A DNA stretch of 54,769 bases from Methanobacteriota archaeon. GTDB taxonomy: Archaea; Thermoplasmatota; Poseidoniia; Poseidoniales; Poseidoniaceae. Under the pieces are notes generated by a model. It saw only the letters and a program-made list of their open reading frames with translations. It did no database searches and was not told the origin of the DNA. Numbering within the stretch: position 1 is the stretch's first letter; each line of letters opens with the position of its first letter. Position numbers and translations under genes: made by a program. The stretch lies in assembly GCA_009937025.1 (NCBI GenBank), contig JAACDG010000070.1, positions 1-54,769 of the forward strand. Direction: 5' to 3'. Positions 4,888-38,989 of this stretch are shown piece after piece.

Positions 4888-4974
4888 TTACTGCCGGTCT
4901 AACCATTGTTGGCCATAATGTTGCCACTGTTCCATTGTCCAACCTTCGGGCAATCCAGATGCTGGCAAAGGCGG
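4888..4974 (-). repeat. C-terminal PPLP-GLPxGWT-QW module, copy 1
   Basis: Encodes PPLPASGLPEGWTMEQWQHYGQQWLDRQ-stop. Confidence 0.85.
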
Positions 4975-7900
4975 ACCTATCGAAGGTGCTGGCTCTTGAA
5001 GAGCAACAGGTGTTGGCATTGGCATCGGTTGTGGAATTGGAAGTAATGGCAGAGCCTTCGGTGGCATTCCTGCTGGAGGGAGTCCTTGTGGCATTGGGAG
5101 TGGCTTGAGAGATGCTGCTCCAGGTGGAAGCCCCATAGGTACGGCAGCAGGAGCAGTTGGCAAAGGCATTTGCAACGATTGAGCAAGCGCCGCTGCAATT
5201 TCATCAGACGATACTTCTCCACTCGCTATTTCATCAACAGCGTATCCAATGTCCAAAGCATCATCTCTTCGAGTGCCAAGATGATCTGGATTGACAAAGG
5301 CATCCGGTGCCACAAGTTCTTCTCCAGAGTCAGTTAATTCACCACTCTTTTTCATTCGTAGGGCTAGTACGACTGCACCTATGATGACAACACCTACCAA
5401 CGGCAAGGAAAGATAAAGTGGTAAGAAACTGAACAATCCTTTTGTCCCGGTCGCAGAATCGACAGATGATTCAATGGACAATGTTCCATAAACCGAATCT
5501 CCTGAATTCAATGTTATGGTCGTCATGACCTTTCCTTTTTGGGCGTTTTCGCTTGGTGTAAGTTCGACAACAAGAATTAGAACTTCGCCAACTGCAATTG
5601 AATCAACATTATTTGGTGTGCATGAAACAGACCAAGCCTTGGAAAGGTTACCATCTGCGTCTAAAACTTCACTGAGGACATCACCGCTTAACGGCACATT
5701 TCCGTCGTTTCGAATGACAATATTTTGACGGACAGTTTCTTCTCTTGAAACAAGGATAAACGGAGTGATGCTGGCATCCTCAACCGTAATATTCGCAAAG
5801 GATGATGCAAGAACTGAGACTTTGACGGACACTGAATATTGAATCATGCGCCCATCGTTATATCCAGATGCTGTGACAACCAATTCGAACGCCTCGGAAG
5901 TTGCAGGTGCATTGGCAGGAGGAATAAACCCAAGACGTACTGTTCGATTCTCTCTTGGCTCGAGATAGTTGCTTGGGTTTGCAAAACCGACTGTCCAACC
6001 ATCAGGAGCAAGTCCATTGCTCCAATTTAGCGTCAATGGAGCGTTACCTGTATTCGTAACGTTAAATTCTCCGAAGGAAAAGTCTGAGGAAATAACGGTT
6101 TCAATAACGCCAGATTCAGGACCGGTTAATTCCATTGAAAGGTCGTCTTTCACCTTGAGAACGGTCGTATTCGAAACAAATTGCTGGGCATTGAGTTCCG
6201 TCCGTATGACGAAATTATTTGTTTCGCCTTCCTCGGCAACGGGTGGTACTCCCAATACAAAATTGACTGTTGTAACTTCTCCGCCGGCCAAAGTAAGAGA
6301 AATCTGGCGACTGTCGAGTTGATCTTGATACTTGACCTGAATCGGCCAAAGAGGGTTGGAGGGTTGTATTATTACATCCAAATCTATTGCGGTATTGCCA
6401 GTGTTTTCAACAGTTAGATTGAGTGAAACTTGTTCGCCTGTATCAACCATGCAATTCCGATTGATTGCTGAAGGGCCAATTGGTCCGAGGTCATCATACA
6501 AATCTCCTTCAAAAGATTCCTGAGGAAGTACCAAGACATCAACGGATTGAGTAAAATTCATTTCAGCATCATTTTGTGAATTGACCCAACACGTTACTGT
6601 ATCGGTCGAACCAGAAACAGGAGCACCGTTAGAAACAGGGGGGACAAAGATGCGAATATACATAGGAAGAGACTCTTTGATGTTCAAAGGTTCAAATTCA
6701 AGTGTCGAAGAATTCGATGAGCCAAGCATAACTTGCCAACGATTTTCAGAGGTGCAAGATACGACATACTGCCCAGGAGTATTTCCAATGTTCATCACGG
6801 AGATAACGAAACCTGTTGAGTCTCCTGGTGCTGCAGATAAACCGCTTATTCCTGCTGCGCCAATGTTGACTGCATTCACTTCGGGAACAACGATGGTTAC
6901 ACGTTGTGTGTGAGATACAGTAGGTTGTGCCTGATATCGAGCGATGATATCAACAACAAAAGTTCCTGCCCGTGCATAACGAGGCGCAGAAGAATCAGAC
7001 AAGTCTGCATATTCATTCTCAAGGTGAACTGTAAGCATCTTGAAATCGCCTTCTTCACCTTGTCCTTCCACAATGTAAGGGCCAATCTCAGAAACCGTCT
7101 TGGTCCAATAATCTTCAGGAGCAAGTAAGAAATCGGGTCGCCCCGGTTGAGGCATTTGTACATTGGTTACCGAAAGAGTAACACTTTGTTGGCCTGTTCC
7201 TTCATGAAGAATGTGTATTGGAATATCAATGCCAGTGTCATTGAGTACATCGAAGACTTTCATTGCTGAATCTGCCCGTGCTTCCGGTGTCGTTGGGGCA
7301 ATTCCTGAGGCATCTAAAGCGACAACACGGACCCCAAGAGCTGTTACTTCTATGTCTTGAGTCCACACATTGTTGTTTACACCATTGACACCATCGTTCA
7401 TTTCTGGTACTTGATTGAGCGTATCAATACTGAGTCGTAATGAATGAGTGCCTGTTGAAGTAAACTGATGCTGAAGTAAAAACGAATCAACAATTCCTGG
7501 CCCAAGTCCTGGGCGGTCAGCATCGAATAATGTTTCATTCGTAGTAAGGTCTTCAAGGGTAACATGGAAGGTTCCAGAGGATAAAGTACCTTGATTAATC
7601 CAACCTAATTGTAAGGTGATTAAATCATTCTTGAGTGGTTCTTGTGATGAAGGAACGATGCTTCCATTATATGTTGCCAAATCGGATTGTGGGTTTGATG
7701 TAGCATTCGCAACCAAAACGAGTCCAAAGGATTGGGTGGTGCCTCCTCGATGCATTACTTTAACCTGCCATTGCCCAGATGCAGTAAGAACGCCTGGTGC
7801 AACTTTAATCCGTTCGACATTGTTGATGGTATCAGCAACACCACCTGTTGTCGAAAAGCCAGATGTGAAATCGTTACCAAGCCACTCGTTTCCAGATGGG

Positions 7901-9837
7901 TCAACGAGAATCAAATCCAAGTCATTCACCAATCGAGAATTCGCTTGAGCAGCGTTTGCACTCCCCTCCTCATCAGACCATACCAGCGTCATATCAATTC
8001 CATGACTTGGGTCAAGAGTAAATGCATAGAGTAATCCAAATCCAGCATCCAATTGTTTGTTGTGATCGATGAAAGTATCCAGAGGGGTTGCTCCATCCAT
8101 TGGTAAAACCGTTCTTTCAAGGTCGATTTGACCCCATCCTTCGAGAGCGTTTGGAATATCAGGAGCTCCCAAATCCGTTGCTCCATTGATGACAACTGCT
8201 TTGATTAAAGCTGCAGAGGGGGAGTTAATTCCCAGTTCCTCGCGCAAGAATTCACGCACAAGTGCTGTTGCTCCTCCAGCAATGGCAGTCGCATGTGAAG
8301 AACCAGAGAGCGACATGTAAAGACTACTACCGTCGGAATGTGTACCTGTGCCACATCCAAATCCAGTGGGGGATTTGGCTTCTTCTGCAAGTCCCGAACA
8401 AATGTCCATTCCCGGGGCAACAATGTCAGGCTTAATTCGACCATCGAGGCTTGGCCCTTGGCTCGAGATATTAGAAACACTGCCGGTTAATGCACCGGTA
8501 TGAGTTGTCCCAACTGCAAGAACGTTTTTCGCGGTTGCTGGAGCAGATACTTGAGACGACCCTTGGCTACCCCGGTCTCCAACTGAGAAGAGAGGTAGAA
8601 CAGTATTTTTGTCACTTACAAGCAAATCTACAGAACGTGAATCAGCGGTATAATGCCCATAATTTCCATTTGAGCCCCAAGCATTGATGGCGATACGAGC
8701 AGTTTTCTGTTCTGCATCGTTAAGTAAGTCGTAGATTGAACCAAGCCGACCAAAAACTCCGGTTGGGTCGTGTTCAAGTGCATACATGACGAGGTTAGCA
8801 GCAGGTGCAATACCTTGTGCTGATGTATCACCTGAGCCATCTCCAAGAGCGGAAAGAGTAACGTGGGTTCCATGCCCAGTATTGGTATCGGACGGTGAAG
8901 GGTCAAGTCCAAATTGGGTGTAAACACCTGCAACTCGACCGACGATATCAGGGTGATCTTGGTCCAACCCTGTATCTGTAATGGCAATTGTTTCACCAGA
9001 GCCGTCAAGAGTGAAAGGCGCATTTGTGGCGATACCAGTTTGGCCAATTATAGCACCAGCAACTGCATTGTGCAGGACAAGACCCGTTGTTGGCTCGGTC
9101 CAAATAATACGACCATCGTGCATGATATTGTTGAGAAGAAGTGATTGGAATTGAGAGTCAAAGTGTATTTCACACAATCCTACACCGCACCATGCCTCAT
9201 TCGCACCCATTTTGACTAAGTCGAGACTGAGGGTGTCAAAACCTCCGATAGCAAGGTCAGATGAAGGCACGAGTGCCAAATGGGTTACTGATGATGGTTC
9301 GAGAAGCGAGGAATGTATTCGCCAACCAGGGTGCTGTACGCCAGCCCAACGTACACGTTCATCGTTTTGTAACTCTTCAAGAGATGAGAGAGGGGGTGAA
9401 GCGAGGCGAATGAGCCAGCCTTCATCGGCAATAAAGTCCAAAGGCGTGATGGAATATTCCTTCACCAGTTGCTCAAGAACGACACCATCATGCTGATGCA
9501 ATTGAATCAATGCAAGAGCCGATTGAGCCGGGTCGTTCAGGTCCGTATATTGTGAATGCAAGTTTGGGCCATCAGAAACCAAAGGGTCAAATTCGCCGGA
9601 TTGGAGACGCAAAATCCCACTTGATGGACGCAATTCTACATCCAAAATGGGGATAGGTTCTGCTCGGTTCCAAAGAGTTGTAGCAAGTTCAAGGCGTTCC
9701 GATTGTGAAGTCTTGTTTGGCTCATCGAGTTGTAAATCCAAGACAGGAGTTGGCTCGGATTGGAGAACTGGACTTAGAGAAGTCAGTAACAGCAAGAAGA
9801 GCATCAAAACTGGGCGCCGCATTTCTTGCATGGTCAT
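4888..9837 (-). CDS. Membrane-anchored S8 (subtilisin, Kp43-like) serine peptidase with CARDB/Ig-like stalk, C-terminal TM and Pro-rich GWT tail
   Basis: Signal peptide; ITDTG, HGTHV and SGSSHA catalytic motifs; SSQGP..DGRIKPD; LVNDLDL...NNVE C-domain; repeated V.NTGN Ig-like modules; TM (LPLYLSLPLVGVVIIGAVVLAL); Pro-rich tail. Confidence 0.9.
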   Translation of the reverse strand: MTMQEMRRPVLMLFLLLLTSLSPVLQSEPTPVLDLQLDEPNKTSQSERLELATTLWNRAEPIPILDVELRPSSGILRLQSGEFDPLVSDGPNLHSQYTDLNDPAQSALALIQLHQHDGVVLEQLVKEYSITPLDFIADEGWLIRLASPPLSSLEELQNDERVRWAGVQHPGWRIHSSLLEPSSVTHLALVPSSDLAIGGFDTLSLDLVKMGANEAWCGVGLCEIHFDSQFQSLLLNNIMHDGRIIWTEPTTGLVLHNAVAGAIIGQTGIATNAPFTLDGSGETIAITDTGLDQDHPDIVGRVAGVYTQFGLDPSPSDTNTGHGTHVTLSALGDGSGDTSAQGIAPAANLVMYALEHDPTGVFGRLGSIYDLLNDAEQKTARIAINAWGSNGNYGHYTADSRSVDLLVSDKNTVLPLFSVGDRGSQGSSQVSAPATAKNVLAVGTTHTGALTGSVSNISSQGPSLDGRIKPDIVAPGMDICSGLAEEAKSPTGFGCGTGTHSDGSSLYMSLSGSSHATAIAGGATALVREFLREELGINSPSAALIKAVVINGATDLGAPDIPNALEGWGQIDLERTVLPMDGATPLDTFIDHNKQLDAGFGLLYAFTLDPSHGIDMTLVWSDEEGSANAAQANSRLVNDLDLILVDPSGNEWLGNDFTSGFSTTGGVADTINNVERIKVAPGVLTASGQWQVKVMHRGGTTQSFGLVLVANATSNPQSDLATYNGSIVPSSQEPLKNDLITLQLGWINQGTLSSGTFHVTLEDLTTNETLFDADRPGLGPGIVDSFLLQHQFTSTGTHSLRLSIDTLNQVPEMNDGVNGVNNNVWTQDIEVTALGVRVVALDASGIAPTTPEARADSAMKVFDVLNDTGIDIPIHILHEGTGQQSVTLSVTNVQMPQPGRPDFLLAPEDYWTKTVSEIGPYIVEGQGEEGDFKMLTVHLENEYADLSDSSAPRYARAGTFVVDIIARYQAQPTVSHTQRVTIVVPEVNAVNIGAAGISGLSAAPGDSTGFVISVMNIGNTPGQYVVSCTSENRWQVMLGSSNSSTLEFEPLNIKESLPMYIRIFVPPVSNGAPVSGSTDTVTCWVNSQNDAEMNFTQSVDVLVLPQESFEGDLYDDLGPIGPSAINRNCMVDTGEQVSLNLTVENTGNTAIDLDVIIQPSNPLWPIQVKYQDQLDSRQISLTLAGGEVTTVNFVLGVPPVAEEGETNNFVIRTELNAQQFVSNTTVLKVKDDLSMELTGPESGVIETVISSDFSFGEFNVTNTGNAPLTLNWSNGLAPDGWTVGFANPSNYLEPRENRTVRLGFIPPANAPATSEAFELVVTASGYNDGRMIQYSVSVKVSVLASSFANITVEDASITPFILVSREETVRQNIVIRNDGNVPLSGDVLSEVLDADGNLSKAWSVSCTPNNVDSIAVGEVLILVVELTPSENAQKGKVMTTITLNSGDSVYGTLSIESSVDSATGTKGLFSFLPLYLSLPLVGVVIIGAVVLALRMKKSGELTDSGEELVAPDAFVNPDHLGTRRDDALDIGYAVDEIASGEVSSDEIAAALAQSLQMPLPTAPAAVPMGLPPGAASLKPLPMPQGLPPAGMPPKALPLLPIPQPMPMPTPVALQEPAPSIGPPLPASGLPEGWTMEQWQHYGQQWLDRQ

Positions 9838-9873
9838 TCGTACTACCCTGCCCTTTTCAAAACGCCCCTTGGC

Positions 9874-9891
9874 TGTGCCCTATGGGGCACA
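9874..9891 (-). terminator. 7-bp inverted repeat immediately after the gap stop codon (terminator or mRNA-stabilising hairpin candidate)
   Basis: TGTGCCC-TATG-GGGCACA, a few nt beyond the gap stop; no clear U-tract follows. Confidence 0.35.
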
Positions 9892-9895
9892 CAAA

Positions 9896-12669: not shown

Positions 12670-12678
12670 GGTGAAAGA

Positions 12679-14427: not shown

Positions 14428-14428
14428 A

Positions 14429-14800
14429 TTAGTATGGAGCATACGTACCATCAGACTTTTTCTGATGGGGGACTGAGTCAAATCGGCCATCGGCAAATTG
14501 TTTGTAGTGATATCCATCAGTATGATGAATCCATGTGAACTTTTCAACAGCAGCAGGGGTTGTTGCCGAATCAATGATTCCTTCATAGAATTGAGATTGT
14601 TCTTCAGCACGTTTCACAGTTGTAGCACCGTTGCCAAAAAGAGAGACTGCTGCTTTGTAATCCACTGATTCACGATGGGAATTATCCGCCAATACTTCTT
14701 GGCTGGGATCCGCATCTTTACGATAAACAATCGGTTCAGGTTCAGGTTCATCAAGCATCAGCGGTTGCTTCTTTTTCCCAAAGGGCCAAAGGGGTGGCAT
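14429..14800 (-). CDS. Small hypothetical protein with an aromatic beta-hairpin C-terminus
   Basis: MPPLWPFGKKK start with a plausible RBS; fills the gap between pheT and the divergent gene; C-terminus WIHHTDGYHYKQFADGRF...DGTYAPY. Confidence 0.65.
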   Translation of the reverse strand: MPPLWPFGKKKQPLMLDEPEPEPIVYRKDADPSQEVLADNSHRESVDYKAAVSLFGNGATTVKRAEEQSQFYEGIIDSATTPAAVEKFTWIHHTDGYHYKQFADGRFDSVPHQKKSDGTYAPY

Positions 14801-14893
14801 ACCTTTCCGAGATTCATCTGCTTCATGAAGACTACGAACATCTGCGATGCATACATTGAGTGATGTTGAAGTGCATGATGATATGGACGGGTT

Positions 14894-17320
14894 ATGCGCA
14901 GAGTGTTCATTGTGATGATCCTCCTGCTGCATTCAACGGTAGCGGTTGCTGTTGCAGGTGCTGATTCTTCATCGACACATCCTCGTAGCAGTGAATTGGA
15001 CGTGATTGGGCTCAACCAAATTACACTTCACCAAAATGAATTGGTAGAAGTCTTGTTCACACTGCACAACATTGGTGAAGATGATGATTTCTATTCCTTT
15101 GAACTCGAGTCGGAAGTGAGTGGCTTGAATGCAACAGGTTTGCCGCACACTAAATTCGTTGAAAGCGGATATCTTCGGCAAGTGAAATTTAATCTGACCT
15201 CTGATGCAACTACACCTTTCGGGGTGTATAATTTTTCATTGAACTTTACCTCTCAAAACGACCAAAATTGGCATCAAATCGAAACGTTTCAAGCCCTTGT
15301 GGCGCCTTATTCAAATCTCAACTTTGGGGTGTCGGGAATCTCATCATTTATCGTCACACCAGGAACAAGAACTTCTGTTGCCATGAACATTACAAACAAT
15401 GCCACATTAGAAGATGATATCACCTTCAACTTGTATTCTCAAACGGGGTGGAATTGGGGGTGGACAATGGATTCTACCGAAGGCGTCAACGCATTTGAAA
15501 CGCTCCAACCGGATTCATTGACGTATGTATTTTTGTGGATAGACGTCCCCCCAATTATCGATGGGGCTCCACTTGCAAATACTGGGCCACGATTTCAATT
15601 GAAAGCCGTATCTGGCATAGATGGTGCGATATCACAATGGTCTTTTGACCTTTTAATGGATGATTTCTACAATGTTTCTATTGATTCAGGTGGCGACAAT
15701 CTCTTGCTCAAACCTGGAGGGAATGATCGAATCCCCATCTCTGTTCGAAACACGGGTAATACGCCAAACTTGGTCAATATTACGCTGGAAGCAGTATCTG
15801 AAAATGGTGAGCCAATCGTTGGCATCCCAATCAGTGACAGAATTACATATGAGGGTTGGACAATGGCTCTTTTCGGAGGATTAGAAGGAAATATGCTCCA
15901 ACCAAATGAATCGAGAACTCTTGAAATTGGATTCCAAGCGCCACTGGAATATTCAGGGGACATCGATGTTCGTTTGCGCATCTTTGCCAGCGGTGCGCTT
16001 GCTCGAATGCAAACGATAGATGTCAGCGCATCCATTGATTGGCAGCGAAGTGGGTCTGTGCAATTGCTTACAGATTCATGCCAGTATTTGTTACCAAATG
16101 AAACGTGTGATGCACGTGTTTCAATAGAGAACTCAGGAAATGCGGTTGATAGTTATGAATTCACAATAATACAGGTACCTACATTTGTTGAAGCAGAACT
16201 TCTTCTCTCAACGACTGAAATTGAACCAAATGGTATTGTCGAACTCACTTTGCTTAACATCACTGCAAATGCATCTGCTTATGCTTTTGAATTAGATGAT
16301 GTCGTTGTAGAAATTCGATTACTTAACACAGATACTCTCGTTGGAATTGCTCGAATACCGGTAAAAATAGCTCCAGTTATCAAATGGGTATTCACCGATA
16401 TCGTTGAAGAAATTGACAACCAAGGGCGTCTATCAATCGCCATGACTCTTCGAAATGAAGGGAATACTGCTGACGGTTTATTGGTTCAATTGCAATCATC
16501 ACATTCGACAGACATGTCGTTTATTCCTCCCTTCATAGCCATCTATGAAGAAGACATTGAGTACCCTCGTTCCTTCGAAGTAAGTGATATTCCTATCGGC
16601 TATAATTTCACTGTTCGTGCTTGGGTTGATTTACCAATCGACCAACTGAGTAACGGCACGGTATGGGTTAACACGAGTGTTCGTTCACAATTTGAGCCAA
16701 GTACTCTCTTTACCTACACCTGTCAAGGGGATTACAAAGGAATACCTTGGCAAGAAACAGAGGTGGATGATTCCTTTGACTTTGCTGCTGCACTCAATAC
16801 CGGCTGGGATTTTTTCAAGGCATGGTTTTTGATGTTCTGTGCAGTTTTGTTTTCTGGAGCCATTATTTACAAATCGATTACTGCCCGTAATCAAAGGAAT
16901 CTTGAACAAAAGCAACTCGAGGAATTGTATCGTGAAAAAGAACCTGAAGTTGTTGGGGACTGGATGGATAAATTCAGTGCAACAGATAAACAAGTGCCTG
17001 AAGATACTGCTCTGAAGGTTCATCCAGACCATTTCCAGGAGGCTTTCCAAAATCGAGCAGGAACATACAAGCCGGTCAGTGAGCCGGTCAATCCTGCACT
17101 CACTCAGGCAGCCAATACGGTGTTAGATTTTCATAGTTCGAACGAGTTGCGTTCTTCAGCGGATTCCTTGCTCGAAGATATCCAATCCGGAAAAGTTTCA
17201 GTTCCGCATGAAGGGAATGAAACTCTCAAAACTACTGCACTGGATACGGATGAAACGAAATCTGTTGAATCACAATCGGTTCCTCTCCCGAACACCGAAA
17301 ATGATGACCTCGATATTTAG
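14894..17320 (+). CDS. Membrane-anchored surface protein with tandem Ig-like (COG1470/NEW3-like) domains
   Basis: Signal peptide; repeated LHNIG, ITNNA, VRNTGN, IENSGN, LRNEGN modules; TM AWFLMFCAVLFSGAIIY; charged cytoplasmic tail. Confidence 0.8.
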   Translation: MRRVFIVMILLLHSTVAVAVAGADSSSTHPRSSELDVIGLNQITLHQNELVEVLFTLHNIGEDDDFYSFELESEVSGLNATGLPHTKFVESGYLRQVKFNLTSDATTPFGVYNFSLNFTSQNDQNWHQIETFQALVAPYSNLNFGVSGISSFIVTPGTRTSVAMNITNNATLEDDITFNLYSQTGWNWGWTMDSTEGVNAFETLQPDSLTYVFLWIDVPPIIDGAPLANTGPRFQLKAVSGIDGAISQWSFDLLMDDFYNVSIDSGGDNLLLKPGGNDRIPISVRNTGNTPNLVNITLEAVSENGEPIVGIPISDRITYEGWTMALFGGLEGNMLQPNESRTLEIGFQAPLEYSGDIDVRLRIFASGALARMQTIDVSASIDWQRSGSVQLLTDSCQYLLPNETCDARVSIENSGNAVDSYEFTIIQVPTFVEAELLLSTTEIEPNGIVELTLLNITANASAYAFELDDVVVEIRLLNTDTLVGIARIPVKIAPVIKWVFTDIVEEIDNQGRLSIAMTLRNEGNTADGLLVQLQSSHSTDMSFIPPFIAIYEEDIEYPRSFEVSDIPIGYNFTVRAWVDLPIDQLSNGTVWVNTSVRSQFEPSTLFTYTCQGDYKGIPWQETEVDDSFDFAAALNTGWDFFKAWFLMFCAVLFSGAIIYKSITARNQRNLEQKQLEELYREKEPEVVGDWMDKFSATDKQVPEDTALKVHPDHFQEAFQNRAGTYKPVSEPVNPALTQAANTVLDFHSSNELRSSADSLLEDIQSGKVSVPHEGNETLKTTALDTDETKSVESQSVPLPNTENDDLDI

Positions 17321-28697: not shown

Positions 28698-28787
28698 TCA
28701 TTCACGATTCTTAAGGTAATCTTCGCCATACCAAGCCCATTGGTCCATTGTCCAGCCAGCAGGAAGGCCTTCAGGGGGCAAAGGCGG
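28698..28787 (-). repeat. C-terminal PPLP-GLPxGWT-QW module, copy 2
   Basis: Encodes PPLPPEGLPAGWTMDQWAWYGEDYLKNRE-stop. Confidence 0.85.
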
Positions 28788-31463
28788 AGTTGATGGGACA
28801 ACGGGAGCGGTGAACTGAACTGGAGCGTTCACGAGAGGAGGACTGTTCAGTGCATTGGATGGACTTCGACGACTCATCAGAGCAAAACCAACGAGCACCA
28901 TGAAAACAACTCCGAAGGCCACCAGAATAAATGTGGTAGGGAAGGACGAATCTTTCGAAGCAAGATGCCGTGAAGCATCCAGTGGGAAAGCGTCTGCTTC
29001 ATCTGACCAACCATCTCCGTCGCCATCAGGGCAACCGATGAGGTCTTGTTGAGAAGTCCCAGCGACTTCAGGACAATCATCACTCATATTCGTGCCGTTT
29101 TGGTCGGGATATCCGTCCTCATCGGAATCTGACCAAAATCGTTCATCGCTCGGGAAGATATCGAGATTATCATCCCAACCATCACCATCTGTATCAGGGC
29201 AGCCTAGACGTTGTTCACTTGAGAGACCAAAAAGTCCAGGGCAAGCATCGGGTAAATCGCCTGTTATTGAATCTCCATAACCATCTTGGTCAGCATCGAG
29301 GTGTTGAGTTGCGTCGTTTGGGAAAGCATCGATGGCATCTGACCATCCATCGCCATCTGTATCAAGACATCCAAAGACATCTTCTGATGAATTTCCTTCA
29401 ATCATTGGACAAGCATCGGGTTGAAATCCATCCGCAGCATCCCCGTAACCATCACCATCTTGGTCAGCATGCTGAGTGCTGTATGTAGTGAAGGCGTCAG
29501 CCCCTGAAGCCACAGTCCAATCCGCATCCGGATTAGACCAACCATCTCCATCTGAATCAATACAGCCAAGGCGGTCTTCTGTAGAGGTGCCTGGAACTGA
29601 TACACAGGAATCACCCTCAAATCCATTGATTTCATCTCCAAAACCATCACCATCAAGGTCGGACCATTGAGTTGCCTCGGCAGGGAATTCATCAACTAAA
29701 TCTGAATAACCGTCGTCATCCCAATCAGCGCAACCTATGAGGGTCCCTGCATCGCTGGTACCAGCATTTACTGGACAGTCATCAATACTGTCGGAAAAGC
29801 CATCATTGTCGTCATCAAGGTCTTCTGAGATATCTTCACAACCGTCTTGGTCGAGGTCATTGGTGGTGGAAGAAAAGAAAGAGGATGGGCTTGTTGGACA
29901 GAGGTCCATTTCGACGGATGAAATACTACAGAACCAAAACCCTTCAGATATTGATGCATCACAAATACGGTCGTTATCATCATCATAGTCTTCTCCAGAA
30001 TCTCTGCAACCATCGAAGTCATAATCGGAGGATGTGGTCGAAGTCCATCCAAGGTCGCCGGTCGCACAATAGTCTACAGAATCAAAAACACCGTCGTTAT
30101 CATCATCGGAGTCTTCGGTGAGGTCGGCACAACCGTCCGTATCATGGTCTGTTGCCGAAGAAGAAATCCAACTCAAATTACCAATATTACAGTCATCGGC
30201 AAGGTCAAGGATACCATCGTCGTCATCATCATCATCACACACATCTCCAAGTGCATCGCCATCGTAATTGGCTTGAGAAGGATTAGCGATCAATGGGCAA
30301 TTATCAACATCATCTCCAATTCCATCTCCATCTTCATCCATAAAGGGGTCGATTCGAACGACTTCATCTTGGCCATTATCGACGTAGTAGAGATGACCAT
30401 TTGGACCAATTTCAAGACCCATTATGGATGATGCTGTGGTTTGAATCGTATCGGCCACTGAAGCACTTTTTCCATCGGAATTCAGGTCATATGCAACGAT
30501 CTTTCCATTACCATTGAGGGAAACAAAGAGTTGGTCGCCATCAAGAGCGATTCCTGAAGGTCGGTTGAGCCCAGAGGCCAAAACACCCCATTCAATTCCA
30601 GTAATGCTTGAATATTCTTCAAGTGGTTCCAATCGTGATGAATCGCTCATGATGTCCTGAGTATTGTATGATGTATCATCGGTATTGACCCATAACACAC
30701 GGTTTGCTCCCGCATCTGCGATGTAAAGAATTCCTGAATCTTGGTCCAAAATCATGTGTCCGGGAACTCCAAAAGAATGTGTGAGCTGAACATCGACATA
30801 TCGACGAACAATTCCATCCGAGTGGTCGTCATAGCCTGTGTCATGGTCCATTTGGAAATCATAATACACGAGTTCCCCGTAATAGCCATCATTGTACCAA
30901 TATTTGTTGGCAGAGTCGTGAGCAATACCAACCCCATATGGAGATTCATGATTCATATCAATATGACTGCCAAGAAGACCATTGCCATTGTTTTGATTTT
31001 CCACCGCAAAGTGATTCAATGAAGATGGCCACAATGTTGGACCCATGAAATTGTTCGGCGCGCCTTGACCGCAAAATGTATTTCGCGTTTCTTGGGCAGA
31101 ACCCCATTGCCAATCGAATTCGGGATGATATGCCCCAAATGCAATTGAACTTACTTCTTCGAGGAAATGATTTCGATTCGAATCTTGACGATTCTGGGAA
31201 GTTTGGTTTTCAAGCCCTGTGTTTTGGACAATCGTTATGCTGTCTGTTGCTCGGTTAGCCACCCATAATTCGTTTGCTCGACCAGGATGGAATTCCAAAT
31301 CACGTGGGTCAGAAAGGGCATCGGAGGAGTCTGCTATGACCACTTCATCGAAGCCTACACCAAATTGAGATACAACCGGTGCATCTTTTGAAGCAAAGGC
31401 ATGTGAAGGAATAGAAAAAAGCAGAAGGCTTAGGAGAATTATGCCGATTTGCTTATTCATCAT
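28698..31463 (-). CDS. Surface protein: NHL-like beta-propeller, thrombospondin type 3 (Ca-binding) repeats, TM and GWT tail
   Basis: Signal peptide; PRDLEFHP, PSGIALDG, GLEIGPNG propeller blades; many DxDxDG...DxCP repeats; TM FILVAFGVVFMVLVGFALM. Confidence 0.85.
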   Translation of the reverse strand: MMNKQIGIILLSLLLFSIPSHAFASKDAPVVSQFGVGFDEVVIADSSDALSDPRDLEFHPGRANELWVANRATDSITIVQNTGLENQTSQNRQDSNRNHFLEEVSSIAFGAYHPEFDWQWGSAQETRNTFCGQGAPNNFMGPTLWPSSLNHFAVENQNNGNGLLGSHIDMNHESPYGVGIAHDSANKYWYNDGYYGELVYYDFQMDHDTGYDDHSDGIVRRYVDVQLTHSFGVPGHMILDQDSGILYIADAGANRVLWVNTDDTSYNTQDIMSDSSRLEPLEEYSSITGIEWGVLASGLNRPSGIALDGDQLFVSLNGNGKIVAYDLNSDGKSASVADTIQTTASSIMGLEIGPNGHLYYVDNGQDEVVRIDPFMDEDGDGIGDDVDNCPLIANPSQANYDGDALGDVCDDDDDDDGILDLADDCNIGNLSWISSSATDHDTDGCADLTEDSDDDNDGVFDSVDYCATGDLGWTSTTSSDYDFDGCRDSGEDYDDDNDRICDASISEGFWFCSISSVEMDLCPTSPSSFFSSTTNDLDQDGCEDISEDLDDDNDGFSDSIDDCPVNAGTSDAGTLIGCADWDDDGYSDLVDEFPAEATQWSDLDGDGFGDEINGFEGDSCVSVPGTSTEDRLGCIDSDGDGWSNPDADWTVASGADAFTTYSTQHADQDGDGYGDAADGFQPDACPMIEGNSSEDVFGCLDTDGDGWSDAIDAFPNDATQHLDADQDGYGDSITGDLPDACPGLFGLSSEQRLGCPDTDGDGWDDNLDIFPSDERFWSDSDEDGYPDQNGTNMSDDCPEVAGTSQQDLIGCPDGDGDGWSDEADAFPLDASRHLASKDSSFPTTFILVAFGVVFMVLVGFALMSRRSPSNALNSPPLVNAPVQFTAPVVPSTPPLPPEGLPAGWTMDQWAWYGEDYLKNRE

Positions 31464-31636
31464 GTCAATCCGAAAATGCACTGTGCTTTGATACCTTTCA
31501 TTATTAAATCTAAATGACATCAATAACAATCCTTCCAAAGAGACTACTTCCGACCCCATTCACATTGGAATTCTCGCTAATAATTGATTGAAAGTAGGGG
31601 ACGAAACTTTAACTAAAACTCTTCTCCGAAGTATAT

Positions 31637-32248: not shown

Positions 32249-32267
32249 ATGAACCATCAGTGAAACA

Positions 32268-33395: not shown

Positions 33396-33462
33396 TGCAC
33401 TCACCGAACAAAACGAGGGGATTCAACGACCTCTTTGAACATCTCGCATGAAAACACTCTTC

Positions 33463-34440: not shown

Positions 34441-34503
34441 AATACTCATCCCTCGCTCTAATCCGATACTCAAGTATGTTGTCATCCATTGTACGAATCA
34501 ATA

Positions 34504-35535: not shown

Positions 35536-35624
35536 AGTCTTGCCAACATGGCTTTGACTTTCACCTCTTCGCCCCTTTTCTCGAAGAAAGGCATGTTCAT
35601 GTGCAAGTGATGGCTGGCGAGTTC

Positions 35625-36140: not shown

Positions 36141-37173
36141 ACAGGTAATCTGTTTGTTTCATCCATTCGACAACTGCTCGGTCATTTCCGAGCCAATCAA
36201 TGGGCAATGACTCAGAGAGCGTCCTCCATGCAATTGCATCGTGTGCAGTCCACTCAGCCTTGTTCTCGAAATTTGGTTGTTCACCAAGAAATGATGTTGG
36301 TAAAATGTGAAGAGAAATGTCGATGTGTTCAAGTGCGTGGTACCAAGTTCCAACAGGATGTTTACACACAACATGCCATCCAAACTCTTCCTTCATCTCA
36401 CGCTCTAATGCCTGAATCATAGACTCATCACCCTCGATTTTCCCTCCAGGGAATTCCCATTTACCAGCATGGCTCTGATTCGGTGCGCGTCGAGCAACAA
36501 AGTAGTGTTCATTACGAGTTATGAGGGCGCCGGCAACAGATAGAACTGGCCTGAACATCATTCTTTGTAGGACTTCATGAACAAAAGAAAGAGCAGAGGG
36601 AAGGGGACAATTTTCATGCGAAGGAAGATGGAGGAAAAAACATGGAGTGGTCAACTCGTCATGTACTGCTGTTTCGGCAAGAGCCGAAAGGGTTCGATAC
36701 AGCGTTTCGTTGCAGAGGAAGGTTCCAGCGTCAGTTGAAATCTCACACTCAATTGGCCAAGTCCGCGTCATCCACGATTTTATCGGGGCTTTGACCGAAA
36801 GGTCTCCCTGCCCAGTGATTTCTTGTTCGAGGATTTGTCGACCGCTGTTGTCAGGTATTCGCATTTCAATTCGGTCTTGGGCACGTGTTTCCAATCTGGG
36901 TATCGTACAGGTTTCACACAACCCAACATGAAGAATTGCATCCCATTCTATCCCCTGCTGAATCGAGGTAGAAATTTCAACCGAACCTGGCTGATCGACT
37001 GTGAGAATACGTGTGTCGATTGAGGCATCAAGTGGTTCGACACTGTGCTCACGGATATCTGACCATGGGTCATTCAACAGAAGGCGGTCTGGTAATGCTT
37101 CAACCAGTTCGCTGGAAATATTCCGAAGATGCCCTCCAAACGGCTCAAAACCGGTCACCAATATCCGAACCAT
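36127..37173 (-). CDS. pcp: Pyroglutamyl-peptidase I (C15) fused to a MutT-like Nudix hydrolase
   Basis: ILVTGFEPFGG, LE.RA, IPDNSG, DAGTFLCN (Cys), FLHLP (His); then WEFPGGKIEGDESMIQALEREMKEEFG Nudix box. Confidence 0.88.
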   Translation of the reverse strand: MVRILVTGFEPFGGHLRNISSELVEALPDRLLLNDPWSDIREHSVEPLDASIDTRILTVDQPGSVEISTSIQQGIEWDAILHVGLCETCTIPRLETRAQDRIEMRIPDNSGRQILEQEITGQGDLSVKAPIKSWMTRTWPIECEISTDAGTFLCNETLYRTLSALAETAVHDELTTPCFFLHLPSHENCPLPSALSFVHEVLQRMMFRPVLSVAGALITRNEHYFVARRAPNQSHAGKWEFPGGKIEGDESMIQALEREMKEEFGWHVVCKHPVGTWYHALEHIDISLHILPTSFLGEQPNFENKAEWTAHDAIAWRTLSESLPIDWLGNDRAVVEWMKQTDYLSTTM

Positions 37174-37267
37174 GGTACTGCCTTGCCGAGGGGGTTTTTG
37201 ATACCCTTGCCGCTTGACCTCCCGTCATGTTGACAAATAAGGACCAACACGACAGTCTGCGGGGGGC

Positions 37268-37609
37268 ATGGAAATAGAATCTGAATTGACCGTTACTCTT
37301 CCCGCTGAAGAGAAGAGCGGGGTACTTGAATGGCGACCCATTCGATTAGTACGAGCTATCTGGAAAGAAATCACATTTGGAGTAGGGGCATGGGGAACAT
37401 TACGTCCGTTGATAACTGCACTTCTTGCTGCGGTTCCATTCCTTTTCCTTGGCCAACATTTTAATCGTCAACATCGCAGAGGATTTGACTGGACATTACT
37501 GCAAATACCCCTTGCCTTAACGGTCGTTCTTTGGGTGGGGTTGTGGGGCTATTCCATTTTTGATGCGTGGAAAGAAGCAACACAAAAAGTAGCTGCGCAA
37601 CAGGATTAA
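37268..37609 (+). CDS. Small membrane protein
   Basis: Two hydrophobic helices; LGQHFNRQ...WGYSIFDAWK pattern. Confidence 0.7.
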   Translation: MEIESELTVTLPAEEKSGVLEWRPIRLVRAIWKEITFGVGAWGTLRPLITALLAAVPFLFLGQHFNRQHRRGFDWTLLQIPLALTVVLWVGLWGYSIFDAWKEATQKVAAQQD

Positions 37610-38397
37610 GGCCGCCATAACTGGTCTGTACATGGAATTGAACCGTCTGCTAAACCTTGTAAATCCTGTTTATCATTAATGTCAAATTCAGTTGGTAAAT
37701 CATTGTCAAAGAAATTTGCGATGCTTGAAGATTCAACAGCCCAGTACATCACTGAATCTTCATTATTCGAATGGTGTGGATGTTCGCTGTCTTCATGGTC
37801 AACTGGTGAAGTATAGACTATATTCACCAAGCCCAAGAGATGTCCAATCTCATGAACAAGAACGCTGTTTTCGATTTTTTCTGCAGATGGCCTCCGAAAA
37901 ATATTCTCGGCATCGTCGATTGAATCTTTGAAGATCGAAACGGTTGATGCATCAACAGCCACACCAAGAACACTTGAATCCTCATATGTGCCTGCAGGGA
38001 ATATGGCTTGCCAATACAGTGTTGAACCTTCTCTTGGGTCATTCGCTTTTTCATCCCAACTCATCGTACGGACATCTTCAGAACTCCATACTGCATCGTT
38101 TTCGAAATTTGTTTCAGTGAACACAAAGTCAATGCCCTGAGGTTTATCGCAGACGGATTCCAATCGTTGTTTTAGCAAATCTGTCGAAGAAGTTTCAGGT
38201 CTGTATCCGGGTTCGTAATCGATTTCTACAACCATTGAGGTATAGGTTGAGTCATCAAGGCAAGCCAATGTCAAGCCGCCGGGAATTCCGTGATTTAATC
38301 CCAAATCCCCAAGGTCATCTACTCCCAAACAACCGGAAAGTGTAGGTGTAAGGAGGACTGTGATGATTGCTAAACAGACATGGACGCCTCTCTTCAT
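37606..38397 (-). CDS. Putative lipoprotein zinc metalloprotease (metzincin-like)
   Basis: Lipobox LSGC; HEIGHLLGL zinc motif; HPHHS and SVMY Met-turn. Confidence 0.8.
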   Translation of the reverse strand: MKRGVHVCLAIITVLLTPTLSGCLGVDDLGDLGLNHGIPGGLTLACLDDSTYTSMVVEIDYEPGYRPETSSTDLLKQRLESVCDKPQGIDFVFTETNFENDAVWSSEDVRTMSWDEKANDPREGSTLYWQAIFPAGTYEDSSVLGVAVDASTVSIFKDSIDDAENIFRRPSAEKIENSVLVHEIGHLLGLVNIVYTSPVDHEDSEHPHHSNNEDSVMYWAVESSSIANFFDNDLPTEFDINDKQDLQGLADGSIPCTDQLWRP

Positions 38398-38434
38398 GGT
38401 ATGCGGTAGAGGTGGTTATTTTCAAACCCACTGT

Positions 38435-38887
38435 TTACCAGTCTTCTGGAATCTCAAGAGGAGAGAATAATTGTCCAGGGCCTTTGGCCTTTGACAACTG
38501 AGTTCGAGAGAGGGCCTCCCATGGACGAAGTGCCAGCAACCCCTCTGCTAATGATGCATCAATCTCTACGAGTGTTACGCGAATGAGTGTTGCCAAAATA
38601 TCCATTCGGTCAGCATCGATTATCTTGAAAATTTTTTCTAAGTCAAATGTAAACTCATTGCCATCATCATCTGGAGTTTCAATCACCCATGGGTGTGTAA
38701 CCGTATCAGGGAATTCTTGCTGAGTCGCAGTAATGTGTTCGTCTAATGAACGGGAAAGGCCCGCTATGTGCTTACTTAAGACAAGGCTCACTTCGATTAA
38801 TGGCATGTTCAATTGGTTGATGAGGTTGACCATGCGTTCTTGCAAAGTCACCATACCATCTATGGCCGAAGCCTTCTCGTTCGTCAT
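38435..38887 (-). CDS. Hypothetical helical cytoplasmic protein
   Basis: 150-aa ORF starting 9 nt after the giant gene's stop codon; no TM or signal peptide. Confidence 0.75.
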   Translation of the reverse strand: MTNEKASAIDGMVTLQERMVNLINQLNMPLIEVSLVLSKHIAGLSRSLDEHITATQQEFPDTVTHPWVIETPDDDGNEFTFDLEKIFKIIDADRMDILATLIRVTLVEIDASLAEGLLALRPWEALSRTQLSKAKGPGQLFSPLEIPEDW

Positions 38888-38896
38888 CTCAACAAC

Positions 38897-38989
38897 TCAC
38901 TTTTTCATTGCTTCAACGTATTGCCAGCCAAAGTGGTTCCATTGGTCTTGGGTCCATCCCTGAGGCAGTCCAGTCGGTGGAATTGGAGG
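38897..38989 (-). repeat. C-terminal PPIP-GLPxGWT-QW module, copy 3
   Basis: Encodes PPIPPTGLPQGWTQDQWNHFGWQYVEAMKK-stop. Confidence 0.85.

What the first reader, a model, noticed from the sequence alone, without database searches (positions are those of the whole stretch)
4888..38989. Shared post-TM C-terminal module on three unrelated giant surface proteins: candidate sorting/anchoring system
Seen: the S8 protease (4888-4974), the propeller/TSP3 protein (28698-28787) and the ~1800-aa protein (38897-38989) have unrelated ectodomains. All end in TM + Pro-rich linker + PP[LI]PxxGLPxGWTx[ED]QWxx[YF]Gxx[WY], stopping 4-6 residues later. By topology the module is cytoplasmic. It does not match archaeosortase (PGF-CTERM), LPXTG or PEP-CTERM signals. 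Known: LPxGW opens WW domains, and PPLP is a group II WW ligand. Inference: a portable intracellular tag that clusters, localises or traffics surface enzymes and adhesins through a dedicated partner, or by self-association.
Basis: partly seen in the sequence, partly recalled or inferred. Interest (0 to 1): 0.85.

Follow-up and report, generated by a model that had tools for sequence, protein, structure and literature searches.

The report
Shared cytoplasmic tail on archaeal surface proteins
Marine Group II archaea (Poseidoniales) attach the same small, uncharacterised tail module to the inner end of up to eleven unrelated giant surface proteins per cell, which suggests that they dock these proteins to something inside the cell.

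Summary
The three window proteins end in TM, basic cluster, disordered linker and PPLPxxGLPxGWTxEQWxxYGxx[YW]L. The same genome holds 11 such proteins, cleanly separated from noise. The module matches no Pfam or NCBIfam family, no PDB sequence and no paper found. It occurs in 63 of 63 sampled Poseidoniales genomes (1-11 copies) and in 0 of 237 other Thermoplasmatota. It is nearly always C-terminal, and 113 of 113 proteins examined have a TM upstream with basic residues on the tail side, so it is cytoplasmic by inference. It is the best-conserved part of these proteins, and the conservation is at protein level, not DNA level. AlphaFold2 models a confident non-helical Pro-rich stretch plus an aromatic amphipathic helix. 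It is not a WW domain and not a sortase-type signal; the genome has a separate ArtA/PGF-CTERM system.

The function is inferred: a docking tag for a shared intracellular partner, which remains unidentified. The best lead is an order-specific, highly divergent SepF-like gene that replaces canonical SepF. It lies directly downstream of a tail-bearing gene in 10 of 14 genomes. In the other 4, the same surface-protein family keeps that position without the tail.

The parts
4888..9837 (-). Gene of a 1649-aa type-I surface S8 (subtilisin-like) protease that carries the tail
   Evidence: translation; Peptidase_S8 E=4.4e-38; N-terminal hydrophobic signal and one C-terminal TM
5362..5418 (-). Transmembrane segment of the S8 protease (residues 1474-1492), followed by LRMKK
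   Evidence: Kyte-Doolittle 19-aa window, score 2.53
4975..5361 (-). Cytoplasmic linker of the S8 protease, 135 aa, 20% Pro
4900..4974 (-). Tail module core, PPLPASGLPEGWTMEQWQHYGQQWL
   Evidence: 71.9 bits
28698..31559 (-). Gene of a 953-aa type-I beta-propeller/TSP3-repeat surface protein that carries the tail. The true start is probably the internal Met near residue 33.
   Evidence: TSP_3 and MtsC-like hits; the Atlas holds the sequence from residue 33 on
28875..28931 (-). Transmembrane segment (residues 877-895), followed by SRRS
   Evidence: score 2.88
28788..28874 (-). Cytoplasmic linker, 35 aa up to the GLP of the motif, 29% Pro; AF2 pLDDT 56-65
28713..28787 (-). Tail module core, PPLPPEGLPAGWTMDQWAWYGEDYL. 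The AF2 model has pLDDT 84-89 here, with a helix from MDQW to KNR.
38897..44374 (-). Gene of a 1825-aa type-I surface protein with no known family that carries the tail
   Evidence: no Pfam or NCBIfam family; orthologues of 1791-1856 aa with the tail in own-family genomes
39194..39250 (-). Transmembrane segment (residues 1709-1727), followed by MNRRIR
   Evidence: score 2.61
38990..39193 (-). Cytoplasmic linker, 74 aa up to the GLP of the motif, 23% Pro
38915..38989 (-). Tail module core, PPIPPTGLPQGWTQDQWNHFGWQYV (the most divergent of the 11)
   Evidence: 63.1 bits
44371..50325 (-). 1984-aa TSP3-like secreted protein without a C-terminal TM or tail. Its stop overlaps the start of the 1825-aa gene by 4 bases, so the two are probably co-transcribed and the secreted protein may be held at the surface by the tailed one.
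38435..38887 (-). 150-aa soluble helical protein, found only in the order among genomes searched, 9 nt downstream of the 1825-aa gene. A weak partner candidate.
   Evidence: 13 of 13 Poseidoniales, 0 of 87 others; pLDDT 87; no PDB fold match; adjoins a tail gene in the 2 own-family genomes checked, not in the 2 sister-family genomes checked

Best explanation
The module is a small autonomous C-terminal mini-domain of about 27 residues. It has a Pro-rich extended stretch (PP[LIV]P..GLP), a Gly-Trp-Thr turn, and an amphipathic helix with an aromatic face ([ED]QW..YG..[YW]L). It sits in the cytoplasm at the end of a poorly conserved, disordered, acidic or Pro-rich linker behind the single C-terminal TM helix of Sec-exported type-I surface proteins of Poseidoniales.

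Most likely it is a docking tag. Through it, 1-11 otherwise unrelated surface enzymes and adhesins per cell engage one common intracellular, probably membrane-proximal, partner that positions, retains or clusters them.

Shown: the anatomy, the order-wide distribution, protein-level purifying selection, portability, and distinctness from known families.

Inferred: the cytoplasmic location (positive-inside rule), the fold (AF2 confidence only), and the whole docking function.

The partner is unidentified. The most concrete lead is the order-specific divergent SepF-like membrane adaptor encoded directly downstream of one tail-bearing gene.
For: 1. Same tag on unrelated ectodomains. The carriers include an S8 protease, an arylsulfotransferase-like propeller, PKD/CARDB proteins, TSP3 propellers and unknown families.

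2. Architecture. All 113 of 113 tail proteins with at least 260 aa upstream have a TM within 260 aa. K+R averages 0.23 in the 12 aa before the TM and 2.74 after it, and 97 of 113 have more after than before. Linkers are 29-136 aa. All 11 of 11 own proteins have an N-terminal hydrophobic signal.

3. Position. In 125 of the best 150 of 637 database representatives, the motif ends within 15 aa of the C-terminus. A TM lies upstream in 43 of the 44 that are at least 150 aa long.

4. Selection acts on the protein. In 77 orthologue pairs identity is 75% in the tail, 51% in the ectodomain, 39% in the TM and 28% in the linker. The loci were chosen by tail similarity, so the tail figure is biased upward. 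Among the 11 paralogous tails nucleotide identity is only 63%, and identical residues share a codon in 36% of cases.

5. Phyletic pattern. Present in 42 of 42 own-family and 21 of 21 sister-family genomes; in 0 of 8 genomes of the sister order and 0 of 229 genomes of other Thermoplasmatota families.

6. Fold. AF2 with 94 sequences gives pLDDT 84-89 over the motif against 56-65 over the linker, with a helix over MDQWAWYGEDYLKNR.

7. Partner lead.
- A family of about 190 aa (A5) has a conserved N-terminal MxNLWQFFGLPDP, a variable linker and a conserved C-terminal domain. It aligns with canonical Thermoplasmatota SepF cores (hhalign probability 85.8%, E 5e-6, 49 columns).
- Pfam SepF matches 0 of 14 Poseidoniales but 71 of 87 other Thermoplasmatota. 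A5 shows the reverse: 14 of 14 against 0 of 87.
- A tail gene lies immediately upstream on the same strand in 10 of 14 genomes.
Against: No partner was shown to bind.

The 11 own loci share no neighbour gene family other than the tail proteins themselves. In the 80 related loci, neighbours recur only within one orthologous family, which is synteny.

In 4 of 14 genomes the gene upstream of the SepF-like gene is a full-length orthologue of the same surface-protein family (30-32% identity over about 1,000-1,190 aa) that lacks this tail. The surface-protein/SepF-like linkage therefore does not depend on the module.

Order-specific co-occurrence is weak evidence, because kin share many features. 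The unrelated 150-aa protein at 38435-38887 shows the same pattern.

Most invariant residues (P, G, L, P, G, W, T, Q, W, Y, G, L) could be explained by the mini-fold itself. The helix positions facing away from the aromatic face vary, so a conserved binding surface is not evident.

Topology rests on hydrophobicity and charge statistics, not on a trained predictor or an experiment. Model coordinates could not be inspected, so packing of the Pro stretch on the helix is inferred from pLDDT alone.
Confidence: 0.5

Rival explanations
1. Self-association. The tails bind each other, homo- or heterotypically, and so cluster different surface proteins into patches from the inside, without a separate partner.
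For: An amphipathic aromatic helix on a flexible tether suits oligomerisation. One protein of the genome (contig C103, 1750 aa) carries two degenerate copies in tandem after its TM (PEGWTSEQYRLW and PEGWTLVQWVLF). Several copies per cell occur in the own family (7-11).
Against: Sister-family genomes usually have only 3 copies and one has a single copy, which makes a clustering network thin. There is no positive evidence of an interface.
Confidence: 0.15
2. Biogenesis or quality-control handle. The tail is recognised in the cytoplasm by a chaperone, an insertase-associated factor or a protease (a C-terminal degron) during or after export of very large proteins.
For: The carriers are mostly large (372-1856 aa, most above 800) Sec substrates. 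The tail is the last part made and stays cytoplasmic. Its position within about 10 aa of the C-terminus recalls C-terminal recognition tags.
Against: The extreme C-terminus itself is variable, with 7-82 residues after the motif and no conserved last residues. Many equally large type-I proteins of the same genome lack the tail. A small 377-aa protein carries it.
Confidence: 0.15
3. Membrane-interface anchor. The Trp/Tyr-rich amphipathic helix dips back into the inner leaflet, sensing lipids or curvature or restraining the linker.
For: The aromatic face W-Y-[WY]-L on one side of the predicted helix is typical of interfacial peptides.
Against: The 25-residue core (PPLP to L) is never positively charged: mean net charge -2.6, range -6 to 0, in 113 proteins. 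It has a conserved acidic residue and no conserved Lys or Arg, unlike known membrane-targeting helices. The invariant Pro/Gly stretch in front is not explained. AF2 is confident about the non-helical part too.
Confidence: 0.1
4. Sortase-type processing signal or translational arrest peptide. The motif directs cleavage and re-anchoring, or it stalls the ribosome at termination.
For: It is a C-terminal tag shared by many surface proteins of one genome, as the sortase-type signals are. Pro- and Trp-rich sequences close to a stop codon recall arrest peptides (recalled, not tested).
Against: The signature lies 29-136 aa after the TM on the cytoplasmic side, not just before it. The genome has its own archaeosortase A (100 bits, over cut-off) and at least 5 classical PGF-TM-basic C-termini on other proteins. 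None of the 11 tail proteins has PGF next to its TM. The distances from TM to motif and from motif to stop both vary, which argues against a tunnel-geometry mechanism.
Confidence: 0.04

Closest known systems
PGF-CTERM/archaeosortase A and the other short C-terminal sorting domains (LPXTG, PEP-CTERM, GlyGly-CTERM, MYXO-CTERM)
   Same: One short C-terminal tag shared by many otherwise unrelated surface proteins of a genome, lineage-restricted, next to a TM helix and a basic cluster.
   Different: There the signature sits just outside the membrane before the TM and is cleaved by a dedicated enzyme. Here it lies 29-136 aa after the TM in the cytoplasm, and no processing enzyme is linked to it. No Pfam or NCBIfam sorting-signal model matches. 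The genome runs an ordinary ArtA/PGF-CTERM system on other proteins.
WW domain and its PPLP/PPxY ligands
   Same: Opens with LPxGW, preceded by PPLP. A Gly and an aromatic follow at roughly WW-like spacing.
   Different: Only about 17-20 residues follow GW. The second Trp is 5 residues after the first, not 20-22, and the segment is modelled as a helix. There is no Pfam WW hit for the tails or anywhere in the genome at E<=1. PDB WW chains match only over 9 residues at E about 1.
FtsZ C-terminal peptide docking onto SepF (Pende et al. 2021, PMC8178401; passages read)
   Same: A short C-terminal peptide at the end of a disordered linker docks a protein onto a membrane-bound adaptor. A divergent SepF-like gene lies next to a tail-bearing gene. 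That neighbour alone adds a C-terminal LLDDLD[LF], in 30 of 30 orthologues against 0 of 74 in the other tail families. This resembles the SepF-groove-binding LDDFI/DLDV quoted in the paper.
   Different: The resemblance concerns the acidic extension, not the GWT module itself. It is a 5-6 residue acidic-hydrophobic pattern of low information, and no binding was tested. The FtsZ of this genome ends ...LRALRNQQIEFVN, without such a motif.
Cytoplasmic tails of Mycoplasma adhesins, and eukaryotic type-I receptor tails such as integrin NPxY-talin (recalled, no call)
   Same: Type-I surface proteins whose short cytoplasmic tail motifs couple them to an internal scaffold. The linkers are acidic and Pro-rich.
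   Different: No sequence relation. No scaffold is known in Poseidoniales, which are uncultured. This is an analogy of logic only.
Pancreatic-polypeptide fold / Trp-cage miniproteins (recalled, no call)
   Same: A polyproline stretch followed by a turn and an aromatic amphipathic helix, in fewer than 40 residues. This would explain the invariant Pro, Gly, Trp and Tyr.
   Different: No homology is implied.

Membership tests
WW domain (PF00397) | Match to the family model | tested here: not met
   No WW hit for the three 103-aa tails at E<=10; no WW match in the whole genome at E<=1.
WW domain (PF00397) | Three-stranded sheet of about 35 aa with two Trp 20-22 residues apart and a Pro after the second (feature recalled) | tested here: not met
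   The second invariant Trp is 5 residues after the first. Only 17-20 residues follow GW. AF2 models a helix there.
PGF-CTERM / archaeosortase A substrates | PGF-type signature directly before the C-terminal TM, then a short basic tail | tested here: not met
   No PGF next to the TM in any of the 11. The tails are 58-175 aa long. PF18204 and the TIGR models do not match.
PGF-CTERM / archaeosortase A substrates | Archaeosortase present in the genome | tested here: met
   TIGR04125 at 100.1 bits, over the cut-off, on contig C149. It is accounted for by at least 5 other proteins ending in PGF-TM-basic.
LPXTG, PEP-CTERM and other NCBIfam sorting-signal domains | Match to any curated C-terminal sorting-domain model | tested here: not met
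   The NCBIfam scan of the tails at E<=10 gives only noise on the TM (CrgA 0.041, CcmD 0.095).
Any solved or curated domain | Sequence or fold match | tested here: not met
   PDB profile search: best E 0.66. Foldseek PDB: 0 matches. ESM Atlas: no usable hit. Public annotations of tail-bearing proteins read only 'hypothetical' or 'thrombospondin type 3 repeat'.
SepF ligand (FtsZ-CTD-like peptide) | Binding in the SepF groove | not testable with these tools
Only adjacency (10 of 14 genomes) and resemblance of the acidic extension are available.
Same module as the 'AQGYP...YAQQY' tails of this genome (UBA-like?) | Profile-profile similarity | tested here: not met
   hhalign of A1 against A4: probability 0.4%, only YGQQY/YAQQY aligned. 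Pfam UBA matches one AQGYP tail at E=0.0025, below the cut-off.

The most novel reading that the evidence does not exclude
Poseidoniales have an inside-the-cell docking system for their cell surface. An order-specific, strongly diverged SepF-like membrane adaptor, standing in place of canonical SepF, or another order-specific scaffold, captures the cytoplasmic tails of a defined set of giant type-I surface enzymes and adhesins. The tails comprise the GWT mini-domain and, on the protein encoded next to the adaptor, an FtsZ-CTD-like LLDDLDL peptide. The cell surface would thereby be coupled to the FtsZ-associated cytoskeleton. That would be an integrin-like link from outside to inside in an archaeon, and a new use of the SepF/FtsZ-tail docking principle.
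Probability: 0.15. Interest if true: 0.9.

Novelty: new variant of a known kind. Interest (0 to 1): 0.66.

Why it matters
Poseidoniales (Marine Group II) are among the most abundant archaea of the surface ocean and remain uncultured, so their cell biology is essentially unknown. Their large surface proteases and adhesins are thought to drive the degradation of proteins and particles.

A tag that is conserved across the order, cytoplasmic and exchangeable on exactly these proteins implies intracellular machinery that organises the cell surface. No such case is known to me from archaea, and the searches found none described for Marine Group II archaea.

Practical uses:
- a 27-residue bait for pull-downs from environmental biomass;
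- a sequence marker for annotating Poseidoniales surface proteomes;
- a family that can be added to Pfam or NCBIfam.

The side finding that canonical SepF is replaced across the order by a divergent form, encoded in a conserved operon with a type-I surface protein, bears on how FtsZ-based division is organised in this lineage.

Tried and rejected
- **Homodimer prediction.** Two copies of residues 25-58 of the 58-aa tail, with its alignment: no verdict. It counts neither for nor against self-association.
- **Fold and feature searches.** Foldseek of the tail model against PDB gave 0 matches, as expected for so small a model. The ESM Atlas gave no usable hit.
- **Shared neighbour genes.** None among the 11 own loci. 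In the 80 related loci, neighbours recur only within one orthologous family and are housekeeping genes: thermosome, Hef-like helicase, GlmS, Maf, a KaiC-like ATPase.
The 150-aa protein is order-wide (13 of 13) but adjoins a tail gene only in the own family (both of 2 own-family genomes checked, neither of 2 sister-family genomes). It is helical with no PDB fold match. The 167-aa protein was found in only 4 of 7 sister-family genomes.
- **WW, GYF and EAGR-like readings.** No WW or GYF match in the genome. The Trp/Gly-rich tails of other proteins match no Pfam family.
- **Homology with the AQGYP tails.** Rejected.
- **FtsZ-tail mimicry by the GWT motif.** The FtsZ of this genome ends differently.
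- **Virus-borne copies.** 50 pattern matches in viral contigs, none confirmed.
- **DNA repeat or gene conversion.** Rejected.
- **SepF-likeness of family A5.**
  - PDB sequence profile: no hit.
  - Pfam on single members: 3 of 16 weak hits, best E 0.028.
  - Only the profile-profile comparison gave support.
- **Literature.** Searches for 'Marine Group II' + 'cytoplasmic tail' + 'archaea' and for 'Poseidoniales' + 'archaeosortase' returned 0 papers. Motif strings returned 2 unrelated papers. In two MGII papers, term finds showed only that MGII MAGs encode 1-4 extracellular S8 subtilisins (PMC6864105, passages) and nothing on tails (PMC9723583). Supplements are closed and were not seen.
- **Not attempted.** Whole-proteome phylogenetic profiling. 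Without a remaining binding test it would only have produced a candidate list.
Full report
**1. Observation**

The three window genes are 4888-9837, 28698-31559 and 38897-44374, all on the minus strand. They encode proteins of 1649, 953 and 1825 aa. The proteins end in:
- ...PPLPASGLPEGWTMEQWQHYGQQWLDRQ
- ...PPLPPEGLPAGWTMDQWAWYGEDYLKNRE
- ...PPIPPTGLPQGWTQDQWNHFGWQYVEAMKK

Their ectodomains are unrelated. The first is an S8 protease with CARDB-like repeats. The second is a propeller plus TSP3 repeats. The third matches no family. BLASTP aligns the three only over the tails. Each protein has an N-terminal hydrophobic signal, one strong C-terminal hydrophobic helix, a basic cluster, and a linker of 135, 35 or 74 aa with 20-29% Pro.

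**2. More than chance, and genome-wide**

The window is contig C173 of a 1.88-Mb assembly with 186 contigs, 83% complete and 46% GC.
- A strict regex finds 11 occurrences in the six-frame translation. All lie 7-39 residues before a stop, in ORFs of 383-1830 aa.
- An HMM of the tails scores these 11 at 52-60 bits. The next of 16,566 ORFs scores 15.7 bits. That ORF, on contig C103, carries two degenerate copies after its TM.
- All 11 share the plan signal - ectodomain - TM - basic cluster - linker (35-135 aa) - motif - stop.
- The ectodomains of the other eight are an arylsulfotransferase-like propeller with TSP3, a tandem pair of PKD/CARDB proteins, a CARDB/Ig-like protein, a propeller, and three with no family.
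- Invariant positions in the 11 are P14, G17, L18, P19, G21, W22, T23, Q26, W27 and G31, with Y30 and L35 nearly so.

**3. Not a known family**

- The tails alone match nothing in Pfam or NCBIfam at E<=10 except noise over the TM.
- A profile search of PDB sequences gives a best E of 0.66. WW domains of Itch and Salvador appear at E 1-3, over GLPxGW only.
- Public annotations of tail-bearing relatives read 'hypothetical protein' or 'thrombospondin type 3 repeat-containing protein', with no domain on the tail.
- Full-text searches found nothing: motif strings gave 2 unrelated papers, and two topic searches gave 0.

**4. Distribution**

An exhaustive profile search of 1.84 billion cluster representatives finds 637 proteins at E<=1e-3 and 324 at E<=1e-10.

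Of the best 150, the motif ends within 15 residues of the C-terminus in 125. The other 25 have 17-82 further residues; 12 of those end in an acidic LDDLDL-like peptide, and several look like read-through artefacts. Many hits are short contig-end fragments. Of the 44 that are at least 150 aa long, 43 have a TM upstream. The exception is P0087, a Cys-rich 236-aa protein.

In the species-representative genome collection, at least 335 stretches are confirmed. Of the 80 best, 79 carry archaeal titles: Poseidoniales, Poseidoniaceae, Poseidonia, Thalassarchaeaceae, Thalassarchaeum, or generic Euryarchaeota/Methanobacteriota/Thermoplasmatota MAGs. One is labelled Verrucomicrobiales (L041). Its ORFs are 54-55% identical orthologues of the tandem pair of this genome, so that contig is probably mis-binned.

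Across 300 sampled Thermoplasmatota genomes:

| Group | Genomes with the tail | Copies per genome |
|---|---|---|
| Own family | 42 of 42 | 7-11 |
| Sister family | 21 of 21 | 1-7, mostly 3 |
| Sister order of the same class | 0 of 8 | - |
| Other families | 0 of 229 | - |

Viral contigs hold none.

**5. Topology and selection**

The sample is 113 tail proteins with enough upstream sequence: the 11 of this genome plus those in the 80 loci.
- All 113 have a TM within 260 aa upstream.
- K+R averages 0.23 in the 12 residues before the TM and 2.74 after it. Ninety-seven have more after, 15 have equal numbers and 1 has fewer.
- Linkers are 29-136 aa, median 71.

With a Sec-type N-terminus and extracellular-type domains, the tail is cytoplasmic. 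This is an inference from the positive-inside rule, not a measurement.

The linkers are 13% Pro and 15% Asp+Glu, and they are poorly conserved. In 77 orthologue pairs identity is 51% in the ectodomain, 39% in the TM, 28% in the linker and 75% in the tail. The loci were chosen through the tail, so the last figure is biased upward.

Among the 11 paralogous tails nucleotide identity is 63% (maximum 73%). Identical residues use the same codon in only 36% of cases. The conservation is therefore at protein level and old, not a DNA repeat or recent gene conversion.

The tail stays with each orthologous family across both families of the order. It can also be exchanged. In four sister-family genomes, full-length orthologues of the tandem-pair family carry a different acidic tail, which in three of them has a DDAFDNPxYDPF-like motif.

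**6. Structure**

AlphaFold2 was run on the 58-aa cytoplasmic part of the 953-aa protein with 94 aligned sequences. It gives pLDDT 56-65 for the linker and 84-89 for the motif. It models a helix over MDQWAWYGEDYLKNR, and the preceding PPLPPEGLPAGW is non-helical yet confident.

The helix places W, Y, [YW] and L on one face. The invariant Gly in its middle and the invariant Pro/Gly/Trp in front fit a miniprotein in which the Pro stretch packs on the aromatic face. This is a PP-fold or Trp-cage-like logic, which I recall rather than tested.

The core is acidic, with mean net charge -2.6 and never positive. That argues against a classical membrane-targeting helix.

**7. What it is not**

- It is not a WW domain. 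The genome has no recognisable WW or GYF domain to read a PPLP ligand.
- It is not a sortase-type signal. The genome has archaeosortase A and at least five proteins with classical PGF-TM-basic ends. These form a separate class.

**8. Partner search**

No gene family recurs next to the different tail genes.

One lead emerged. The gene that overlaps the 3' end of one tail gene is L002:2965-3570, minus strand, on contig C18 of this genome. It belongs to a family (A5) with three parts: a conserved N-terminal MxNLWQFFGLPDP, a variable linker, and a conserved C-terminal domain. This is the SepF plan as described by Pende et al. 2021: an amphipathic membrane helix, a linker and an FtsZ-binding core (passages read).

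Evidence on whether A5 is a SepF:
- Pfam SepF does not match it in the genome, and a PDB sequence profile search finds nothing.
- Three of 16 members give weak SepF hits, best E 0.028.
- A profile-profile comparison with 16 canonical Thermoplasmatota SepF cores gives probability 85.8%, E 5.3e-6, over 49 columns.

| Query | Poseidoniales | Other Thermoplasmatota |
|---|---|---|
| Canonical SepF (Pfam) | 0 of 14 | 71 of 87 |
| Family A5 | 14 of 14 | 0 of 87 |

A tail gene lies immediately upstream on the same strand in 7 of 7 own-family genomes and 3 of 7 sister-family genomes.

That upstream family, and only it, adds a second C-terminal peptide, LLDDLD[LF]. It is present in 30 of 30 orthologues and in 0 of 74 proteins of the other tail families. 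It resembles the SepF-groove-binding part of FtsZ tails, quoted in the paper as LDDFI in M. smithii and DLDV in C. glutamicum. The FtsZ of this genome ends ...LRALRNQQIEFVN, without such a motif.

Against the lead: in the remaining 4 genomes the same surface-protein family keeps its place before the SepF-like gene without the GWT module. The operon link therefore belongs to that protein family, and perhaps to acidic C-termini, rather than to the module as such. Order-specific co-occurrence alone is weak, because kin share many features.

**9. Verdict**

The module is a real, ancient domain found only in Poseidoniales among the genomes searched. It is uncharacterised and forms a cytoplasmic C-terminal mini-domain on type-I surface proteins.

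I hold the docking-tag reading at about 0.5. The rivals are self-association (0.15), a biogenesis or quality-control handle (0.15), membrane-interface binding (0.1), and processing or arrest signals (0.04). The specific SepF-like coupling is the boldest reading not excluded, at about 0.15.

Supplementary files of papers were not available.

Noticed in passing
Own genome contig C18 (L002:2965-3570, minus strand); related loci L009-L087; genomes G005-G097: Canonical SepF (PF04472) was not found in 14 of 14 Poseidoniales genomes searched, but was found in 71 of 87 other Thermoplasmatota. A divergent SepF-like family takes its place (14 of 14 against 0 of 87; hhalign to SepF cores 85.8%). In all 14 genomes it sits directly downstream of a PKD/CARDB type-I surface-protein gene, flanked by a Maf-like gene and, where the upstream side was read (3 sister-family genomes), a TBP-like gene (TBP by recollection of its sequence, no family scan).
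   Followed up: yes
L002:3581-7453 (minus strand) and its 30 orthologues in L009-L087; also window 14894-17320 (+), which ends ...NTENDDLDI: A second cytoplasmic C-terminal peptide, LLDDLD[LF]-COOH, follows the GWT module only in the family encoded next to the SepF-like gene (30 of 30 against 0 of 74). Similar acidic-hydrophobic ends occur on other type-I proteins without the GWT module (contigs C175, C151) and on two small soluble proteins (C25, C35). It resembles the SepF-binding part of FtsZ tails.
   Followed up: partly
Own genome: L088-L095 (contigs C165, C177, C129, C124, C176, C138, C42); window 14429-14932 (-): At least eight other large type-I proteins end, after their TM, in Trp/Gly-rich segments such as DGYWWYHDKVTNEWWYKNAEGE or DENGTWWYRQEGDSEWGEW. 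The soluble 167-aa window protein ends similarly. No Pfam family matches them, WW included. They may form a second class of cytoplasmic tail modules.
   Followed up: partly
Own genome: L096 (C3, two copies), L097 (C178), L098 (C116): A third tail type, ...LIAQGYPxxxAxxYAQQY, occurs on three type-I proteins. Pfam UBA matches one at E=0.0025, below the cut-off. It is not related to the GWT module by hhalign (probability 0.4%).
   Followed up: partly
L116:675-4202 (-), L118:742-4209 (-), L119:646-4194 (+): In sister-family genomes without the GWT tail on this family, the orthologous surface proteins carry a conserved [VL]S[MI]DDAFD[ND]Px[YF]DPF motif shortly after the TM, and acidic C-termini. 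This is a tail swap within one orthologous family.
   Followed up: partly
window 38435-38887 (-): A 150-aa protein found in 13 of 13 Poseidoniales and 0 of 87 other genomes. It gives a confident all-helical model (pLDDT 87, pTM 0.82) with no PDB fold match, and has an invariant C-terminus GPGQLFSPLEIPEDW. Function unknown.
   Followed up: yes
window 44371-50325 (-) and 38897-44374 (-): The 1984-aa TSP3-like protein has no C-terminal TM. Its stop overlaps the start of the tailed 1825-aa gene by 4 bases. They are probably a secreted/anchored pair in one operon with the 150-aa gene and a zincin-like 263-aa lipoprotein-like gene (37606-38397).
   Followed up: no
window 51225-54769 (+): Three consecutive genes start with archaeal class-III (pilin-like) signal sequences (...RDQRAVSEVLGVIMML..., ...RDEHAVSAAVATVLLFGG...). 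One matches DUF7289 weakly (E 8e-6, just under the cut-off). They are probably a type-IV-pilus-like surface structure locus.
   Followed up: no
Own genome contig C103:19950-25202 (+) (L099): A 1750-aa type-I protein with two degenerate tandem copies of the module (PEGWTSEQYRLW and PEGWTLVQWVLF) after its TM. It is the only sub-threshold HMM hit (15.7 bits).
   Followed up: partly
Own genome contigs C4:3112-7665 (-), C16:12641-15160 (-), C23:4969-7584 (+): Other type-I proteins carry zinc-ribbon-like CxxC...CxxC tails or a winged-helix-like cytoplasmic domain. Cytoplasmic tail domains on surface proteins appear to be a general habit of this organism.
   Followed up: no
L041 (NZEQ01000049.1): This contig is labelled Verrucomicrobiales bacterium, but it encodes 54-55% identical orthologues of the Poseidoniales tandem surface-protein pair and of the SepF-like gene. 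It is probably a mis-binned archaeal contig.
   Followed up: partly
Own genome contig C8:1746-2681 (+): A second FtsZ/CetZ-like gene (147.9 bits, below the FtsZ cut-off) is reported with one in-frame TAG. The main FtsZ (C22:3752-4747, minus strand) ends ...LRALRNQQIEFVN, without the GID/LDDFI-type archaeal C-terminal motif described by Pende et al.
   Followed up: no
P0087 (database representative, 236 aa): The only one of the 44 longer hits with the module but no TM upstream. It is a Cys-rich protein and could be a soluble carrier, a fragment or an assembly artefact.
   Followed up: no
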